From Psychromonas sp. (GTDB lineage: Bacteria > Pseudomonadota > Gammaproteobacteria > Enterobacterales > Psychromonadaceae): a DNA stretch of 64,000 bases. Location of the stretch: positions 6,285 to 70,284 of the forward strand of contig NZ_JBLIEK010000002.1 of the NCBI RefSeq assembly GCF_047632995.1, written 5' to 3'. The notes under the pieces were generated by a model. That model ran no database searches. It had not been told where the DNA came from and worked only from the letters and a program-made list of their open reading frames with translations. Shown here piece after piece: positions 57,255-63,417 of this stretch (the stretch's first letter is position 1; every line of letters begins with the position of its first letter). The translations under genes were made by a program, and so were the position numbers.

Positions 57255-57980
57255 ATGAAAATAGCAAAAACAACACGCATCCTTACCCCGATTGAAGATT
57301 GGCAACAGTTGCCAAAGGGTAAGATGTTACAGGAGCAAACTCAACAGCGGATCGATGATTACTTGCCTCTCTGTTTTGGTTACCATCTGTTAAAATTGGG
57401 AAGATTAAGCAGCTTACTGGACACTTCATACTCATTAATTCCCCATCAAATCAATTGCGCCGCTAGCGGAAAAGATATCGGTTTACTCGCAGATATTCAC
57501 CAACTGCCCTTACAAGACGCTTCAATCGATCTCTGTATTCTGGCTCATGAATTGAATTTCTCAAATGATCCGCACCAATTATTACGTGAAGTTGAGCGGG
57601 TATTAACACTCGATGGCACCTTAATTATAACAGGATACAATCCAATGAGCGTTTTTGGATTGCGCTCGCTGTTAAAATCCAAAAGCCCGAAAACGGCACG
57701 GCTATTTTTACTCAATAGGATATACGACTGGCTCTCTTTATTGGGCTTTGAAATTCTACAAAAACAACATTTCGATTTTCTTTCTGGTGATTTTCACAGC
57801 CCATTTTCATCATTCGTCGAGCGAACAGGGCAACGCTATGCCCCTTCTTTTTGCAGTGTTTATTTTATTGTGGCCAAAAAGCATAGTATACCTATGACGC
57901 CGATTAAATCTCCATTTCAATTTAAGCAACAGAGAAGAACAGGGCAAAGTGTTGCCACCAAACATCATTACCCGTCATAA
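57255..57980 (+). CDS. yafS: SAM-dependent methyltransferase, YafS-like
   Basis: [28 protein letters not shown]; position between gloB and rnhA. Confidence 0.85.
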
Positions 57981-58429
57981 CCTAAATCTTTTTGGGTTGG
58001 TTTAGATTCTGCCGCTTGCCGAGCCAAGTCGTCACAACGTTCATTTTCTGGATGCCCAGAGTGCCCCTTCACCCAATGCCAGGTTATATTATGCTTTTCC
58101 TGTGCGGCATCTAATGCTTTCCACAAATCAACGTTTTTTACGGGGGCTTTTGCGGCCGTTTTCCAGCCGCGTTTTTTCCAATTATGGATCCACTGAGTGA
58201 TCCCTTGGCGAACGTATTGGCTGTCAGTGGTCAGATCTATTTCACACGCTTCGCTTAATGTTTCTAACCCTTTGATACAAGCTAACATCTCCATGCGATT
58301 ATTGGTTGTACGCAGGTAACCCTCCGCCAATTCGCGACGGTGCTTGTTATAAATTAACACGGCGCCATAACCACCCGGGCCAGGATTACCTAAACAGGAA
58401 CCATCTGTATAAAGTTCAATTTTCTTCAT
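57968..58429 (-). CDS. rnhA: Ribonuclease HI
   Basis: [43 protein letters not shown]. Confidence 0.97.
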
Positions 58430-58548
58430 TATTATACCCAATTGATTAATTAATTTAGCGCTTATAGATGCACTGTGATTTCAGCTCTAGGCGCATTGGT
58501 TTAGGTTTGCTAGACTCAATTCTTTGCGAACTATAAATAGAGATTAAG

Positions 58549-59268
58549 ATGAACACAAGCAAAGTAATTCGACAAGTCGTATTGGATACTGAAACCACTG
58601 GTATGAATAGAGATGGTGCGATTTATCTTGGCCATCGAATTATTGAAATAGGCTGTGTGGAAATTATTAATCGACGCTTAACAGGACGTCATTACCATGT
58701 CTATATAAAACCAGATCGTGAAGTGGATCCCGAGGCGGTCACAGTGCATGGCCTGACGGATCAGTTTCTGCAAGACAAACCCGTGTTTAGCGAGATTGCC
58801 GATGAATTTATTGAATTCATTAAAGGGGCAGATCTGGTTATCCATAACGCGCCCTTTGATGTCGGCTTTATGGATCAGGAGTTTCGTTTTTTAAATAAAA
58901 AAACACAAACAACTGAAGAAATATCCACCGTAACCGATACGCTAGTAATGGCGAAAAAATTATTCCCCGGTAAACGGAATAATCTGGATGTGTTATGTGA
59001 TCGCTACGGTATTGACAATAAACACCGCGTACTACATGGCGCGTTACTTGATGCCGAGATATTAGCAGATGTTTACCTGCTCATGACAGGTGGACAAGCA
59101 AAACTCAATCTTTCTAGTTCGGAGCGCGGTGAAAATACGACAGGACGAAAAGTCAGACAATCTCAGTCGCCATTAACTATCATTCGTGCAACAGAAGAGG
59201 AAAAAAAAGCGCACCAAAAACGTTTAGATCTTATTGAGAAATCAGGGAGTTGCTTGTGGCGACAATAA
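58549..59268 (+). CDS. dnaQ: DNA polymerase III epsilon subunit
   Basis: LDTETTG, HNAPFD, HGALLDAEIL, MTGGQ. Confidence 0.97.
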   Translation: MNTSKVIRQVVLDTETTGMNRDGAIYLGHRIIEIGCVEIINRRLTGRHYHVYIKPDREVDPEAVTVHGLTDQFLQDKPVFSEIADEFIEFIKGADLVIHNAPFDVGFMDQEFRFLNKKTQTTEEISTVTDTLVMAKKLFPGKRNNLDVLCDRYGIDNKHRVLHGALLDAEILADVYLLMTGGQAKLNLSSSERGENTTGRKVRQSQSPLTIIRATEEEKKAHQKRLDLIEKSGSCLWRQ

Positions 59269-60642: not shown

Positions 60643-60671
60643 TTGACTCAGCAAAAGCAACTAAGTATTAT
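60643..60671 (+). promoter_or_regulatory. Sigma70 stable-RNA promoter of the tRNA array
   Basis: TTGACT-17 bp-TATTAT followed by GC-rich discriminator CTGCGCC. Confidence 0.8.
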
Positions 60672-60719: not shown

Positions 60720-60796
60720 GGAGTGGTAGTTCAGTTGGTTAGAATACCGGCCTGTCACGCCGGGGGTCGCGGGTTCGAGTCCCGTCCACTCCGCCA
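60720..60796 (+). tRNA. tRNA-Asp(GTC) copy 1
   Basis: Canonical 77-nt cloverleaf, anticodon GTC, encoded CCA. Confidence 0.98.
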
Positions 60797-60860
60797 ATAT
60801 CATATTTAGATGTGAAATTGACGTTAGTTAGCACAATGTTGAATCTGATAATTATCACGT

Positions 60861-60937
60861 GGAGTGGTAGTTCAGTTGGTTAGAATACCGGCCTGTCACG
60901 CCGGGGGTCGCGGGTTCGAGTCCCGTCCACTCCGCCA
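60861..60937 (+). tRNA. tRNA-Asp(GTC) copy 2
   Basis: Identical to copy 1. Confidence 0.98.
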
Positions 60938-60994
60938 ACATCATATTTCGATATGAATGATAATTATCAAAAGCTTGAACTGTAATACACTCGT

Positions 60995-61071
60995 GGAGTG
61001 GTAGTTCAGTTGGTTAGAATACCGGCCTGTCACGCCGGGGGTCGCGGGTTCGAGTCCCGTCCACTCCGCCA
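60995..61071 (+). tRNA. tRNA-Asp(GTC) copy 3
   Basis: Identical to copy 1. Confidence 0.98.
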
Positions 61072-61164
61072 ACAGTATTATTGAACAAGTAAACGTTATT
61101 ATTTATTTAATAACAATTTATGTGTAACCAACACATAAAGTGAAGAAAGCTGTAACACACTCGT

Positions 61165-61222
61165 GGAGTGGTAGTTCAGTTGGTTAGGCTCTTGCTTAAC
61201 ATAGTCGGCATGTCACGCCGGG
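61165..61222 (+). pseudogene. Truncated tRNA-Asp with D-loop insertion
   Basis: GGAGTGGTAGTTCAGTTGGTT-AGGCTCTTGCTTAACATAG-TCGGCATGTCACGCCGGG, then no T-arm or acceptor 3' strand. Confidence 0.85.
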
Positions 61223-61301
61223 ATTTGAATTTAAACTCAAATTAAGAGTGGTATTTATGTGTAACCAACACATAAAGTGAAGAAAGCTGTAGCACACTCG
61301 T

Positions 61302-61378
61302 GGAGTGGTAGTTCAGTTGGTTAGAATACCGGCCTGTCACGCCGGGGGTCGCGGGTTCGAGTCCCGTCCACTCCGCCA
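61302..61378 (+). tRNA. tRNA-Asp(GTC) copy 4
   Basis: Identical to copy 1; preceded by a near-identical copy of the 48-bp spacer at 61117-61164. Confidence 0.98.
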
Positions 61379-61456
61379 ACTTCATATTTATATGAATGAA
61401 CGATGTGTACACAGTCCATCTATAATGCGAGTTATAGAACAATAAAAGATTTTAGC

Positions 61457-61533
61457 GGAGTGGTAGTTCAGTTGGTTAGAATACCGGCCTGTCACGCCGG
61501 GGGTCGCGGGTTCGAGTCCCGTCCACTCCGCCA
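61457..61533 (+). tRNA. tRNA-Asp(GTC) copy 5
   Basis: Identical to copy 1; flanks shared with the downstream tRNA-like repeats. Confidence 0.98.
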
Positions 61534-61604
61534 ATTCCTTTTATATCCTCAAGTAAAAAGACCTAACGTTTTAAAAACCCCAACTTATAATAAAAGATTT
61601 TCGC

Positions 61605-61695
61605 GAAATGGTAGTTCAGTTGGTTTACTCTTGTTTAAAAGAAAGCCGGCCTGCCACACCAGTGCTCACTGCTTCGAGTCCCATTAACGAAGCCA
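61605..61695 (+). pseudogene. tRNA-Asp-derived repeat A (91 nt, anticodon position GCC)
   Basis: 14-nt D-loop insertion, unpaired acceptor stem, TTCGAGT and GCCA retained. Confidence 0.85.
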
Positions 61696-61766
61696 ATTCC
61701 TTTTATATCCTCAAGTAAAAAGATCTAACGTTTTAAAAATCCCAACTTATAATAAAAGATTTTCGC

Positions 61767-61857
61767 GAAATGGTAGTTCAGTTGGTTTACTCTTGTTTAA
61801 AAGAAAGCCGGCCTGTCACACCAGTGCTCACTGCTTCGAGTCCCATTAACGAAGCCA
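61767..61857 (+). pseudogene. tRNA-Asp-derived repeat B (91 nt, GTC)
   Basis: One change from A; 162-bp period. Confidence 0.85.
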
Positions 61858-62006
61858 ATTCCTTTTATATCCTCAAGTAAAAAGACCTAACGTTTTAAAA
61901 CTCTCAAATAATAAATTCCCTCTGCATTTCTACTATCAATAATCTTTAGTTAATAAATAATTAGTTTATTACTTCGTTTCATTAAAATTAAATAAAAGAT
62001 TTTCGC

Positions 62007-62096
62007 GGAGTGGTAGCTCAGTTGGTTTACTCTTATTTAAAAGAAAGCCGGCCTGTCACACTAGCGTTCACTGGTTCGAGTCCTGTTAACGAGCCA
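62007..62096 (+). pseudogene. tRNA-Asp-derived repeat C (90 nt)
   Basis: Keeps the GGAGTGG 5' strand, insertion TACTCTTATTTAAA, CTGTCAC, TTCGAGT and GCCA. Confidence 0.85.
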
Positions 62097-62182
62097 ATTC
62101 CTTTTATATCCTCAAGTAAAAAAGTCCTTAGTAAAAAGACCTAACGTTTTAAAAATCCCAACTTATAATAAAAGATTTTCGC

Positions 62183-62269
62183 GAAATGGTAGTTCAGTTG
62201 GTTTACTCTTGTTTAAAAGAAAGCCGGCCTGTCACACCAGTGCTCGCAGGAGTCCCGTTAACGAAGCCA
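62183..62269 (+). pseudogene. tRNA-Asp-derived repeat D (87 nt, T-loop deleted)
   Basis: As B but GCTCGCAGGAGTCCC in place of the T-arm. Confidence 0.8.
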
Positions 62270-62361
62270 AATCCTTTTATATCCCATCTGGTAATAAATT
62301 CCTGTGCTAAACATATTTTACATATTCAAAACATTATTAAATTTAAATCGAATATTTTCAG

Positions 62362-62403
62362 AAAGTGGTCGTACTGTTGGTTTACTCTTTTTTGAAAGAA
62401 AGT
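62362..62403 (+). repeat. Degenerate remnant E of the tRNA-derived repeat
   Basis: AAAGTGGTCGTACTGTTGGTTTACTCTTTTTTGAAAGAAAG. Confidence 0.6.
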
Positions 62404-62580
62404 GTTTTAGGGGACAACTAACTTGACATTTTTTGGTAAACTTCAAACCTAAACCAGCAAATTCTGATAGAAACAAAAAATCGGGTCTATTTAAATGTAA
62501 TCTCAACCCGATAATTTATAATGTAATGTCTAAGCAACAATAGCGGTATAAAAATAGCCGTTATTGTTGGCTTTTATTTA

Positions 62581-63207
62581 CTAAGATTTAGCACTGTTTG
62601 ATTTGCGACGAGAAAATCCAAATCCCACTAAGCCCAACCCAAGCAAGGCAATAATAGCAGGCTCTGGAACTGCAGTACCCGCATAAATCAGCCCCGTTGG
62701 ATACCTATTGTCTGAGCTAATATCATGCACATAAAAGTTAAGCCTGCTAGCTGCTGCGATAAAAATATCACCGGTAATAGCGTGAACATCTATGGCGGTA
62801 TTCCATTCGTTGCCGGCAAATTCAGTAATAGAGTCAAAAAGCTCTACCCCAGCACTTTTAATTTTGAACGTATCGTCCGCAGATACCCACAGTGAAGTAA
62901 TCCACATATCTTCACCCGTCATATTTAAATCCATCTCAAATACACGATAGTCATTTAAAACAGGATCTATATAACTTCCTTCTTGCTGAACCCATTGGGC
63001 ACCTGTTGAACCTGCTGCCGTGTTGAAGTTTGCTTCAGTTATCCATGTGCTGTATGCGTTAGTTGAAAGCGTACAATTAACAGCTCCAACCTTACATCCA
63101 TCATCAGTTCCTGACACAAAATCGATAGTAGTAGCGAAGGCAGTTTGGCTACCAAGTGATAGCGCTGTTGCGGCTATCGCTGCCATTAATAATCTTTTAT
63201 TATTCAT
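62581..63207 (-). CDS. PEP-CTERM sorting-domain surface protein
   Basis: Signal peptide, Thr/Asp-rich body, AVPEPAIIALLGLGLVGFGFSRRK; AAGGA before ATG 63207. Confidence 0.92.
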   Translation of the reverse strand: MNNKRLLMAAIAATALSLGSQTAFATTIDFVSGTDDGCKVGAVNCTLSTNAYSTWITEANFNTAAGSTGAQWVQQEGSYIDPVLNDYRVFEMDLNMTGEDMWITSLWVSADDTFKIKSAGVELFDSITEFAGNEWNTAIDVHAITGDIFIAAASRLNFYVHDISSDNRYPTGLIYAGTAVPEPAIIALLGLGLVGFGFSRRKSNSAKS

Positions 63208-63338
63208 AATTAGTTCCTTTCTATTATTCAAAACCATAAAAATACAATTAAGTTCTATAAAAAGTATTAACCCGTGATATATATCCAACTTATTTACTAA
63301 ATCCATTGAACTGATATCAACATTACATCTATTGCACA

Positions 63339-63354
63339 TGCACAAGCGGTGCCA
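63339..63354 (-). promoter_or_regulatory. Sigma54 (-24/-12) promoter of the PEP-CTERM gene
   Basis: TGGCACCGCTTGTGCA, GG and GC at canonical spacing. Confidence 0.7.
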
Positions 63355-63417
63355 GATGATCATTTAATATAAAAAACATATGTGTACAAGCTATCTGCTG
63401 TACTTTTTTTGCAAAGG

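What the first reader, a model, noticed from the sequence alone, without database searches (positions are those of the whole stretch)
61605..62403. Tandem family of tRNA-Asp-derived RNAs: loops kept, stems broken, 14-nt D-loop insert
Seen: four near-complete copies and one remnant follow the last intact tRNA-Asp, with no clear terminator noticed between them. Compared with tRNA-Asp, copy B has a 14-nt D-loop insertion (TACTCTTGTTTAAA) and 17 substitutions by hand count. None falls in the 27 D-loop, anticodon-loop, T-loop or GCCA positions, and the acceptor, anticodon and T stems can no longer pair. New pairings appear instead: a long 5' hairpin (GTTGGTTT..TCTT-loop-AAGA-AAGCCGGC; TCTTT/AAAGA in remnant E) and a 3' stem GCTTCG/CGAAGC (A,B) or GGTTCG/CGAGCC (C). 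Known precedent: the repeats behind E. coli tyrT yield rtT RNA. Inference: this may be a refolded tRNA-like small-RNA family (decoy or sponge for AspRS, modification enzymes or anticodon nucleases, or a processing/termination module) rather than neutral decay.
Basis: partly seen in the sequence, partly recalled or inferred. Interest (0 to 1): 0.85.

Follow-up and report, generated by a model that had tools for sequence, protein, structure and literature searches.

The report
Conserved family of tRNA-Asp-derived repeats
Behind the five working aspartate-tRNA genes of this Psychromonas genome lie five altered copies that can no longer be tRNAs, yet they belong to an old, sequence-conserved family found beside tRNA-Asp genes in many marine bacteria, so they are probably functional non-coding elements of unknown role rather than simple decay products.

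Summary
Four near-complete copies and one remnant follow the last of five intact tRNA-Asp genes. Each carries the same 14-nt D-loop insert. Copy B differs from tRNA-Asp by 17 substitutions, none in the 27 loop/GCCA positions (P about 6e-4 after correcting for GC content). A sixth, truncated copy with a related insert lies inside the array at 61165.

The copies are not private decay. Homologous copies occupy the same rnhA-dnaQ-linked locus in other Psychromonas species. Their bodies are 78-85% identical, while fourfold sites are saturated and the neighbouring spacer DNA is no more similar than shuffled sequence. tRNA-Asp-like copies with an insert at the same D-loop site sit next to tRNA-Asp genes in Aliivibrio, Photobacterium, Vibrio, Shewanella, Colwellia, Thalassotalea, Psychrosphaera and Pseudoalteromonas. 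A model search found them in about 30 of 301 genomes of the order. Rfam has no such family, and four literature searches found no description.

The "refolded" stems are not supported. They show no compensatory change, the 3' stem is private to this genome, and the folding energies are unremarkable.

Best reading: a conserved tRNA-Asp-derived element, amplified here by tandem duplication and probably acting as RNA. Its mechanism is unknown.

The parts
60643..60671 (+). Promoter-like site (TTGACT-17-TATTAT) upstream of the first tRNA-Asp gene. It is the likely start of the operon that contains everything below.
   Evidence: Consensus scan, 10 of 12 matches. This is inference only.
60720..61533 (+). 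Five intact, identical tRNA-Asp(GTC) genes: 60720-60796, 60861-60937, 60995-61071, 61302-61378 and 61457-61533. The locus is orthologous to E. coli rnhA-dnaQ-aspV.
   Evidence: ARAGORN; Rfam tRNA model, 70.4 bits each; rnhA and dnaQ lie upstream.
61165..61245 (+). Copy P0 ('class 1'), an internal truncated tRNA-Asp derivative. It has the native 5' part, the D-loop insert GGCTCTTGCTTAAC forming the hairpin GUUAGGC/GCUUAAC, an anticodon arm, and then a short AU hairpin in place of the T-arm.
   Evidence: Sequence. Orthologous copies occur in at least 10 Psychromonas species. The insert hairpin is 100% paired with 2 compensatory pairs; 8 of 500 shuffles do as well.
61605..61696 (+). Copy A ('class 2'), 92 nt. 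The D-loop insert is at 61626-61639. The anticodon loop carries a T-to-C change (CTGCCAC).
61767..61858 (+). Copy B (class 2), 92 nt. The insert is at 61788-61801. It has 17 substitutions against tRNA-Asp, none in the loops.
62007..62097 (+). Copy C (class 2), 91 nt, the oldest of the four (84-88% identical to A, B and D). It keeps the native 5' acceptor strand GGAGTGG. The insert is at 62028-62041.
62183..62270 (+). Copy D (class 2), 88 nt. The insert is at 62204-62217. A 4-nt deletion removes part of the T-loop.
62362..62403 (+). Remnant E. Only the 5' part and the insert (62383-62396) remain.
61534..61604 (+). Spacer of the repeat unit. The trailer ATTCCTTTTAT follows GCCA, and the leader AATAAAAGATTTTCGC precedes the next copy. 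The unit is 162-163 nt, and the N5-to-A and A-to-B units are 97.5% identical. About 18 nt of leader and 12 nt of trailer are conserved between species; the rest is not.
62556..62572 (.). Hairpin AGCCGTTATTGTTGGCT followed by a T-run. It is the first terminator-like site downstream on the + strand. It also lies behind the convergent PEP-CTERM gene (62581-63363, - strand).

Best explanation
WHAT IT IS (shown). Copies A-E, together with the internal copy P0, belong to an old lineage of tRNA-Asp-derived elements that are no longer tRNAs. The lineage is defined by an insert of about 12-16 nt at one fixed D-loop site, after GGTT(A/T)(G). It always lies next to and co-oriented with intact tRNA-Asp genes. 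It arises and turns over by tandem duplication of a whole unit (leader + body + trailer). In this genome the unit is 162 nt and was recently amplified (A, B and D are 91-99% identical).

CONSTRAINT (shown by comparison). The body and its immediate flanks are under purifying selection. Adjacent spacer DNA and synonymous sites are saturated. The constraint is strongest on positions 8-21 (5' D-stem strand and D-loop), the insert and its 3' junction, and the 3' GCCA. It is moderate on the anticodon region and weak on the former acceptor and T stems.

HOW IT WORKS (inferred, low confidence). The copies lie on the tRNA strand between the operon promoter and the first terminator-like hairpin. They keep the tRNA-type leader, the GCCA end and the AU-rich trailer. 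They are therefore most likely transcribed as the 3' trailer of the tRNA-Asp operon and cut out like tRNAs into RNAs of about 90 nt. These RNAs cannot fold as a cloverleaf or be charged. They would display tRNA-Asp sequence motifs (D-loop, GUC anticodon loop with C38, G73-CCA) plus the insert. That points to a trans-acting mimic or competitor for some factor that reads tRNA-Asp. The factor is not identified.
For: - Same locus, patchy but old. The array sits behind rnhA-dnaQ in all 12 Psychromonas genomes examined. Window-type class-2 copies occur in two clades of the DnaQ+RnhA tree and are absent from G011, G036 and G008.
- Constraint. Fourfold-site identity in dnaQ against G013, G035 and G012 is 0.32-0.37, which is saturated. 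Class-2 bodies are 0.78-0.85 identical, and leaders 0.67-0.89. Far spacers in the same units are 0.43-0.61, against shuffled controls of 0.46-0.53.
- Shared derived states. ACCAG, TCAC, GTTAAC.AAGCCAA and the insert are shared across species and cannot come from gene conversion by the native gene.
- Uneven constraint. Positions 8-21 are invariant in 10 of 14 columns, against 0 of 7 in the adjoining acceptor strand (Fisher P = 0.004). Loops are invariant in 15 of 26 columns, against 13 of 42 for stems (P = 0.04).
- Every non-native tRNA-Asp copy in the Psychromonas arrays carries the insert.
- An insert-agnostic pattern found 22 of 401 genomes of the order, with 0 hits for the reversed control. 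Nearly all inserts began AG(A/G/C)CT..TT; the window's own begin TACT.
- Model R1 found insert-bearing copies in about 30 of 301 genomes from 7 families.
- Named hosts include Aliivibrio fischeri, Photobacterium, Vibrio, Shewanella, Colwellia, Thalassotalea, Psychrosphaera and Pseudoalteromonas.
- The dead-acceptor 3' tail TCCCGTTAACG(A/T)AGCCA and the 5' GCGAAATGG are shared with A. fischeri, and the tail also with Thalassotalea.
- Plus-strand RNA structure has some support in the class-1 relative. Its hairpin is 100% paired, has 2 compensatory pairs, and has a G-U pair that would be C-A on the other strand.
- The GC content of copy B is 46%, against 23% in the spacer.
Against:
- Neither the class-2 stems nor the family-wide core shows covariation. 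Folding energies are unremarkable. An RNA-structure-based function is therefore unproven, and a DNA-level role is not excluded.
- The elements are dispensable. The closest relative examined (G011, DnaQ 92% identical) and several other species lack class-2 copies.
- Individual copies decay. A has an anticodon-loop change, D has a T-loop deletion, and E is a stump.
- Other spacers inside the array are conserved as strongly. The N4-N5 spacer is 84-90% identical. Part of the signal may therefore be a general constraint on the operon transcript.
- Exchange of array segments between species by recombination, anchored on identical tRNA genes, cannot be ruled out as a contributor.
Confidence: 0.45

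Rival explanations
1. Non-functional pseudogenes kept alive by the dynamics of tandem arrays. Unequal crossing-over keeps making extra tRNA-Asp units. Only copies whose homology to their neighbours is interrupted by an insert escape homogenisation and collapse, so they persist and drift. Patches identical to the native gene are renewed by gene conversion, or array segments are swapped between species by recombination anchored on the identical tRNA genes.
For: - Distribution is patchy, with repeated loss and variable copy number from 0 to 5.
- Decay of single copies is visible: A, D, E, and the second G012 copy.
- Many variants in Vibrionaceae and Shewanella are mosaics with long native-identical 3' parts.
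- No covariation was found.
Against: - Derived, non-native states are conserved at 78-85% while far spacers and fourfold sites are randomised.
- The identity islands in class-2 copies are only 10-16 nt long, which I take from general knowledge to be too short for RecA-type conversion. The adjoining acceptor strand is the most variable part.
- Nearly all inserts found by an insert-agnostic search share one site and one motif across families.
- One genus carries the copies in 10 of 13 sampled genomes, some of them at several loci.
Confidence: 0.2
2. A cis-acting operon-end or spacer module rather than a trans-acting RNA. The tRNA-like bodies would help process, insulate or terminate the long untranslated tRNA-Asp (or rrn-distal) transcript. 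On the opposite strand, the anticodon-arm hairpin followed by the T-rich complement of the insert could stop antisense transcription coming from the convergent downstream gene.
For: - Leader and trailer processing motifs are conserved along with the body.
- In Vibrionaceae, Shewanella and genus g2, each variant unit repeats the strong terminator of the rrn-distal tRNA-Asp, giving tandem terminators.
- Three minus-strand terminator-like sites (CTGGTGTGACAGGCCGG + CTTTCTTTT) fall exactly in copies A, B and D.
- The C-A mismatches of the plus-strand anticodon stem are G-U pairs on the minus strand.
- A convergent gene ends at 62581.
Against: - The Psychromonas units contain no plus-strand terminator.
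- The minus-strand hairpins are only 5 bp with 2-3 G-U pairs, and class-1 and A. fischeri copies lack the T-run.
- Several species do without the module.
- A processing or terminator role does not explain why the D-loop sequence and the insert motif are kept across families.
Confidence: 0.2
3. The conserved insert is a protein-binding motif displayed on a tRNA scaffold, specifically a boxA-like site for NusB/NusE. The units would then act in antitermination of long untranslated arrays, or as decoys that titrate Nus factors.
For: - Of 56 distinct inserts, 26 lie within 2 mismatches of the gammaproteobacterial boxA consensus GYTCTTTAANA (consensus from PMC5725501). Composition-matched shuffles give 1.8.
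- Some variants differ from the consensus by one base, for example Thalassotalea GGCTCTTTATAA and Shewanella CCTCTTTAAAAA.
- In several genera the native tRNA-Asp is the distal gene of rrn operons.
Against: - The resemblance was noticed after the fact, and the inserts are not phylogenetically independent.
- The window's own inserts need a 3-nt gap to fit the consensus (CTCTT-GTT-TAAAA).
- The motif is usually drawn into a hairpin, whereas boxA is bound single-stranded (PMC2800207).
- boxA-like words are not enriched near tRNA genes in this genome: 8 seen, 7.4 expected.
- The genuine rrn boxA of this genome is (T/C)GCTCTTTAACAA.
Confidence: 0.08

Closest known systems
rtT repeats behind E. coli tyrT (own knowledge: Egan and Landy 1978; Bösl and Kersten 1991)
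   Same: Both are tandem repeats in the 3' trailer of a tRNA operon. Both arose by duplicating a unit that includes tRNA sequence, and both are co-oriented and presumably co-transcribed.
   Different: The rtT units carry only the last ~19 nt of tRNA-Tyr plus a small ORF (Tpr). Here nearly the whole tRNA body is kept in altered form, with a defining D-loop insert. The 36-codon ORF in copies A and B is not conserved in other species. The family spans several bacterial families. No sequence homology to rtT was sought or expected.
tRNA-operon spacer or trailer fragments acting as sRNA sponges (3'ETS-leuZ; own knowledge: Lalaouna et al. 2015)
   Same: Both are non-tRNA RNA released from a tRNA operon transcript by the tRNA-processing enzymes, with a possible trans-acting role.
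   Different: 3'ETS-leuZ is not tRNA-derived and works through complementarity to RyhB and RybB. No sRNA partner was sought here.
Pseudo-tRNA 'tRNAOther' of Bacillus cereus (PMC3399842)
   Same: Both are tRNA-like genes that do not serve translation but have, or are suspected to have, a cellular function.
   Different: tRNAOther keeps a tRNA fold, is a single gene beside an island, and acts through a T-box. The present copies have lost the cloverleaf, occur in tandem, and gammaproteobacteria lack T-boxes (own knowledge).
tRNA-Pro pseudogene repeats in the Photobacterium phosphoreum tRNA operon (own knowledge: Giroux, Beaudet and Cedergren 1988-89; the papers could not be retrieved)
   Same: Both are repeated tRNA-like pseudogenes inside tandem tRNA operons of marine gammaproteobacteria. 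This genome also has tRNA-Pro-derived copies.
   Different: That case involves a different tRNA. As far as I recall, no conserved D-loop insert and no cross-family conservation were described.
tRNA-derived SINEs of eukaryotes
   Same: Both show the pattern 'loops kept, stems decayed' in tRNA-derived repeats.
   Different: In SINEs the kept loops are the internal A and B boxes of the RNA polymerase III promoter. Bacteria have no such promoter, so the reason for the pattern must differ.

Membership tests
Canonical tRNA (Rfam RF00005) | Cloverleaf with four paired stems, detectable by the tRNA covariance model or by ARAGORN | tested here: not met
   Copies A-E and P0 gave no ARAGORN call and no RF00005 hit, even at E<=10. 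Only 51% of cloverleaf cells pair in class-2 copies.
Canonical tRNA (Rfam RF00005) | Chargeable acceptor helix ending in the discriminator base and CCA | tested here: not met
   GCCA is kept, but only 38% of acceptor-stem cells pair. In copy B, 2 of 7 acceptor pairs remain.
Neutrally decaying tRNA pseudogene | Divergence between species at the neutral rate, with no lineage-specific conserved states | tested here: not met
   The body is 78-85% identical, against shuffle-level far spacers and saturated fourfold sites. Derived states are shared across clades and families.
rtT-like tRNA-operon trailer repeats | Tandem repeat units directly downstream of, and co-oriented with, the last tRNA gene, derived from it by duplication | tested here: met
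   The units are 162-239 nt. The N5-to-A and A-to-B units are 97.5% identical, spacer included.
rtT-like tRNA-operon trailer repeats | A discrete processed RNA released from the trailer | not testable with these tools
Integrase att-site remnants at tRNA genes | Duplicated 3' segment of the tRNA only, with an integrase or island alongside | tested here: not met
   The copies retain the 5' part and are full length. The neighbours are rnhA, dnaQ, a membrane protein and a PEP-CTERM protein, and no integrase ORF was seen. The insert occurs nowhere else in the genome.
Dispersed mini-element (MITE/REP-like) inserted in a tRNA gene | The same insert sequence present at many unrelated sites in the genome | tested here: not met
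   The window's insert occurs only in this array. In Psychrosphaera the module ACTCTT..AAAGCAT occurs 6 times, all in the tRNA-Asp variant array, plus 3 chance matches that lie in no tRNA.
Type III antitoxin RNA repeats (ToxI-like) | Tandem RNA repeats immediately followed by a co-oriented toxin endoribonuclease gene | tested here: not met
   The next gene (62581-63363) is on the opposite strand and encodes a PEP-CTERM protein.
boxA (NusB/NusE site) | Match to GYTCTTTAANA, single-stranded, and bound by NusB/NusE | tested here: inconclusive
   The family's inserts are enriched for near-matches. The window's inserts have 4 ungapped mismatches and are predicted to be paired. Binding cannot be tested here.

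The most novel reading that the evidence does not exclude
Marine gammaproteobacteria, from Vibrionaceae to Psychromonas, may share an undescribed class of small RNAs built on a disabled tRNA-Asp scaffold. The class would be defined by a conserved, boxA-like or hairpin-forming module grafted into the D-loop, and in some genera also into the variable and T-loops. The RNAs would be released by the tRNA-processing machinery. They would act in trans as non-chargeable mimics that titrate a factor reading tRNA-Asp (AspRS, the queuosine or Glu-Q enzymes, or an anticodon nuclease) or the Nus complex.
Probability: 0.25. Interest if true: 0.85.

Novelty: new variant of a known kind. Interest (0 to 1): 0.68.

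Why it matters
tRNA-like leftovers in tRNA arrays are usually ignored as pseudogenes. Here one such lineage is conserved against a saturated neutral background and recurs beside tRNA-Asp genes in at least seven families of marine bacteria, including tractable models such as Aliivibrio fischeri ES114. It has no Rfam family, and my literature searches found no description. If the elements are expressed, they would form a new family of tRNA-derived bacterial RNAs. They would also be a natural example of a tRNA scaffold carrying inserted modules, with possible links to tRNA-Asp-specific enzymes, anticodon nucleases or transcription antitermination. If they are not expressed, they would still show how tandem tRNA arrays can preserve non-tRNA DNA for very long periods.

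Tried and rejected
2. Known RNA family: Rfam at gathering and at permissive thresholds, on the window and on seven loci from other genera, gave only tRNA, rRNA and chance hits.
3. Literature: four searches on tRNA pseudogenes, D-loop inserts and tRNA arrays in Vibrio and Photobacterium found nothing relevant. The Giroux and Cedergren papers could not be opened by DOI.
4. Mobile mini-element: the insert is not dispersed in this genome or in Psychrosphaera. No phage or plasmid carries the unit.
6. A single family-wide structure for the D-loop insert: RNAalifold predicts none, and the pair counts equal the shuffles. Individual sublineages do form hairpins of quite different sequence.
7. Coding potential: G-to-A changes at tRNA positions 2 and 4 (GGAGTGG to GAAATGG) create an ATG and a 36-codon ORF in copies A and B, but other species lack the start. 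I rejected it by inspection.
8. Minus-strand terminator idea: kept only as part of a rival, because the hairpins are weak and not universal.
9. boxA idea: kept as a low-probability rival.
10. Recent horizontal spread of whole arrays: disfavoured, because far spacers within the same units are randomised even between close species. It is not excluded for short segments.
11. Possible chimera with the tRNA-Lys anticodon arm (GTTGACTCTTTAT against GTTGACTTTTAAT): seen by eye only, in low-complexity sequence, and not pursued.
Full report
ANATOMY

The window ends in a tRNA-Asp operon that lies downstream of rnhA (57968-58441, - strand), dnaQ (58549-59268) and a membrane-protein gene. This is the same neighbourhood as aspV in E. 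coli (own knowledge; ORFs). A promoter-like site lies at 60643-60671. Five identical tRNA-Asp(GTC) genes follow, at 60720, 60861, 60995, 61302 and 61457.

A truncated copy, P0 (61165-61245), lies between genes 3 and 4. Each carries the insert TACTCTTGTTTAAA, or a one- or two-base variant of it, after GGTT of the D-loop.

The repeat unit includes the spacer. The stretch from gene 5 to copy A is 97.5% identical to the stretch from A to B. The copies therefore arose by tandem duplication of the last tRNA unit. A, B and D are recent (91-99% identical), and C is older (84-88%).

No terminator-like hairpin lies on the + strand before 62556-62572, which also ends the convergent PEP-CTERM gene. The tRNA model does not see any of the altered copies, even at E<=10.

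CHECKING THE COUNTS

Copy B differs from tRNA-Asp by exactly 17 substitutions plus the 14-nt insert. None of the 17 falls in the 27 D-loop, anticodon-loop, T-loop or GCCA positions. The hypergeometric P is 2e-4. When G/C and A/T positions are treated separately, to allow for GC-to-AT pressure, P is 6e-4. The former stems are broken: 51% of cloverleaf cells pair over the class-2 alignment.

ARE THE NEW STEMS REAL?

- The 5' hairpin pairs in 86% of cells, but almost all of its columns are invariant. There are no compensatory changes, and a G-to-C change breaks it in three species. Its outer part, GUUGG/CCGGC, can already be drawn in the native tRNA.
- The 3' stem pairs in 63% of cells. Two of its six pairs are unpaired in most species, so the perfect GCTTCG/CGAAGC is a private feature of copies A and B.
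- Minimum free energies are not unusual: z = -1.7, -0.75 and -0.35 for B, C and D.
- A 39-sequence alignment of the 5' core from many genera gives no consensus structure, and its pair counts equal the shuffles.

The internal class-1 element gives a different result. Its insert forms the hairpin GUUAGGC/GCUUAAC, which is paired in all 11 sequences and has two compensatory pairs; 8 of 500 shuffles do as well. It also has a G-U pair that would be C-A on the other strand. By eye, the D-loop inserts of other genera also form hairpins, with quite different stems. A hairpin grafted onto the D-loop may therefore be a family trait. For the window's class-2 copies this remains unproven.

HOMOLOGUES WITHIN THE GENUS

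A BLAST search of 36 congeneric genomes found related copies. The genome-collection scan identifies the genus as Psychromonas. In all 12 genomes that I examined in detail, the array sits behind rnhA and dnaQ.

With N for an intact gene and v for an altered copy, the orders are:
- this genome: NNNvNNvvvvv
- G013: NNNvNNvv
- G035: NNNNNvv
- G012: NNvNvvNNvv
- G015: NNNNvv
- G005: NNNNvNvvvv
- G004: NNNNNv
- G008, G036, G020: NNNNN
- G011, the closest relative examined: NNvNNN

Every altered copy carries a D-loop insert, and I saw no plain point-mutated pseudogene. On a DnaQ+RnhA tree, window-type class-2 copies occur in two separate clades and are missing from three members of the window's own clade. 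The lineage is therefore old, and it has been lost repeatedly.

IS IT CONSTRAINED?

- Fourfold-degenerate sites of dnaQ are 0.32-0.37 identical between this genome and G013, G035 and G012, which is saturated.
- Class-2 bodies are 0.78-0.85 identical to copy B. They share derived states that the native gene cannot have supplied: the insert, ACCAG, TCAC and GTTAAC.AAGCCAA.
- The best internal control is the repeat unit itself. The 18-nt leader is 0.67-0.89 identical and the body 0.78-0.85. The far spacers, 40-60 nt on either side, are 0.43-0.61, against shuffled controls of 0.46-0.53. The same holds among the three closely related species.
- The constraint is uneven. Positions 8-21 are invariant in 10 of 14 columns, against 0 of 7 in the adjoining 5' acceptor strand (Fisher P = 0.004). 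Loops as a group are invariant in 15 of 26 columns, against 13 of 42 for stems (P = 0.04). The T-loop is only weakly kept.
- The identity islands shared with the native gene are 10-16 nt long. From general knowledge this is too short for RecA-type gene conversion, and conversion would also have repaired the adjacent stems.

I conclude that the body is under purifying selection. One caveat is that some true inter-tRNA spacers in the array are equally conserved (84-90%). Part of the signal could therefore be a general constraint on the operon transcript.

BEYOND THE GENUS

- A pattern scan of one genome per species found insert-bearing tRNA-Asp copies beside intact tRNA-Asp genes in the following: Aliivibrio fischeri (including ES114), Photobacterium (damselae, SKA34, nomapromontoriensis), Vibrio sp. 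99-8-1, several Shewanella, Colwellia, Thalassotalea, Psychrosphaera algicola and Pseudoalteromonas piscicida.
- A pattern that fixes only the flanks (GTAGTTCAGTTGGTT, then 12-40 of any base, then GCCTGTCAC) hit 22 of 401 genomes of the order. The reversed control gave none. Nearly all inserts began AG(A/G/C)CT..TT and ended in a purine-rich run; the window's own begin TACT.
- Covariance model R1, built on the 5' core, separates insert-bearing copies (52-57 nt, above 47 bits) from native genes (40 nt, 45.4 bits). It found insert-bearing copies in about 30 of 301 genomes from seven families. These include 10 of 20 Psychromonas and 10 of 13 genomes of a second genus, some of them with several copies at several loci.
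- In Vibrionaceae, Shewanella and that second genus, the native gene is the 5S-distal gene of an rrn operon or is followed by a strong terminator. Each variant unit repeats the leader and the terminator.
- The dead-acceptor 3' tail TCCCGTTAACG(A/T)AGCCA of the window's copies recurs in A. fischeri and Thalassotalea. The 5' GCGAAATGG recurs in A. fischeri ES114.
- The unit is absent from phage and plasmid collections. The insert is not dispersed elsewhere in this genome or in Psychrosphaera. It is therefore not an active mini-element.

WHAT IT MOST LIKELY IS AND DOES

Shown: this is an old, selectively maintained lineage of tRNA-Asp-derived non-tRNA elements. It is defined by a D-loop insert, propagated by tandem unit duplication, and subject to birth and death of individual copies.

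Inferred: the copies lie on the tRNA strand inside the operon. They keep the tRNA-type leader, G73-CCA and the AU-rich trailer. They are therefore probably transcribed with the tRNAs and cut out as RNAs of about 90 nt. These RNAs cannot fold as tRNA or be charged, but they still display the D-loop, the GUC anticodon loop with C38, G10 and G73. By my recollection of Nameki et al. 1992, these last are the E. coli AspRS identity elements. A trans-acting mimic or competitor is the most economical reading, but the partner is unknown.

I put the identity and constraint statements at about 0.75-0.8. I put the RNA-mimic mechanism at about 0.3. The combined statement stands at 0.45.

RIVALS

(a) Array dynamics without function. 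Unequal crossing-over, plus escape from homogenisation through the insert, would keep pseudogenes alive. This fits the patchiness and the visible decay of single copies. It does not fit the conserved derived states or the cross-family motif.

(b) A cis-acting operon-end module for processing, insulation or tandem terminators, including weak minus-strand terminator-like hairpins in A, B and D. This is plausible for the terminator-bearing units of other genera and less so here.

(c) A boxA-like protein site. Of 56 distinct inserts, 26 lie within two mismatches of GYTCTTTAANA (consensus from PMC5725501), against 1.8 in shuffles. However, the resemblance was noticed afterwards. The window's inserts need a gap to fit. 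The motif is usually paired. boxA-like words are not enriched near tRNA genes in this genome.

LIMITS

- Genome handles are anonymous, so family names for f2, f6 and the others are inferred only from the named collection scan.
- The window comes from a 233-contig draft, so the exact copy number of a 162-nt tandem repeat could be mis-assembled.
- Conservation statistics use few and phylogenetically related sequences.

VERDICT

The family is absent from Rfam and from the literature I could search. I rate it a new variant of a known kind (tRNA-derived or pseudo-tRNA elements in tRNA operons), with interest 0.68.

Noticed in passing
window 61165-61245: An internal truncated tRNA-Asp copy (class 1) lies between intact genes 3 and 4, so it is almost certainly transcribed. 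It has a D-loop insert hairpin, an anticodon arm and a third hairpin. The third hairpin's stem differs between species (UUUGA/UCAAA, UUCGA/UCGAA, CGGUU/AACCG). Orthologues occur in at least 10 Psychromonas species.
   Followed up: partly
own genome contig C11:20480-21900 (outside the window): The tRNA-Asn array is interleaved with many tRNA-Asn-derived elements. Some are 'closed minihelices', made of the 5' acceptor strand, the D-arm and a complementary strand, with compensatory variants (CCUC/GAGG, CUUCU/AGAAG, UUUUAC/GUAGAA). Others are fragments that keep the anticodon loop CUGUUAA on new stems.
   Followed up: partly
own genome contigs C80:8300-9110 and C6:24534-24563; also C61, C118 and C155 (outside the window): tRNA-Pro, tRNA-Gln and tRNA-Lys arrays also contain partial copies. 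These keep the first 26-47 nt and then diverge. The tRNA-Pro copies carry a hairpin, CUCCA-UGGGUUUG-UGGAG, in place of the anticodon arm.
   Followed up: no
L095 (Vibrio sp. 99-8-1) reverse strand 501-700; L112 (Shewanella atlantica) from about 422; L062 (Shewanella sp. UCD-KL12) reverse strand 1050-1560: Some variant tRNA-Asp copies carry further nested inserts of about 50 nt made of two small hairpins, often with UCCA loops (consensus ..CA-UCCA-UG..). The same D-loop site is used in Vibrio and in Shewanella. In Shewanella, further inserts split the acceptor stem.
   Followed up: no
L040 (Psychrosphaera algicola) reverse strand 1781-2560: The same ~18-nt module ACTCTT..AAAGCAT sits in the D-loop of these variant copies and, in two of the three, also in the T-loop. 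It occurs nowhere else in that genome apart from three chance matches that lie in no tRNA.
   Followed up: yes
window 61595-61600, 61757-61762 and 62173-62178: A perfect TATAAT lies about 11 nt upstream of copies A, B and D, in the conserved leader. No good -35 hexamer accompanies it. The copies could have weak promoters of their own.
   Followed up: no
window 61609-61719 and 61771-61881: G-to-A changes at tRNA positions 2 and 4 (GGAGTGG to GAAATGG) create an ATG that opens a 36-codon ORF in copies A and B (MVVQLVYSCLKESRP...). Other species lack the start codon, so it is probably meaningless.
   Followed up: partly
window 62581-63363 (- strand): The convergent gene encodes a protein with a C-terminal PEP-CTERM-like sorting signal (VPEPAIIALLGLGLVGFGFSRRK). 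Its terminator hairpin at 62556-62572 would also end the tRNA-Asp operon.
   Followed up: no
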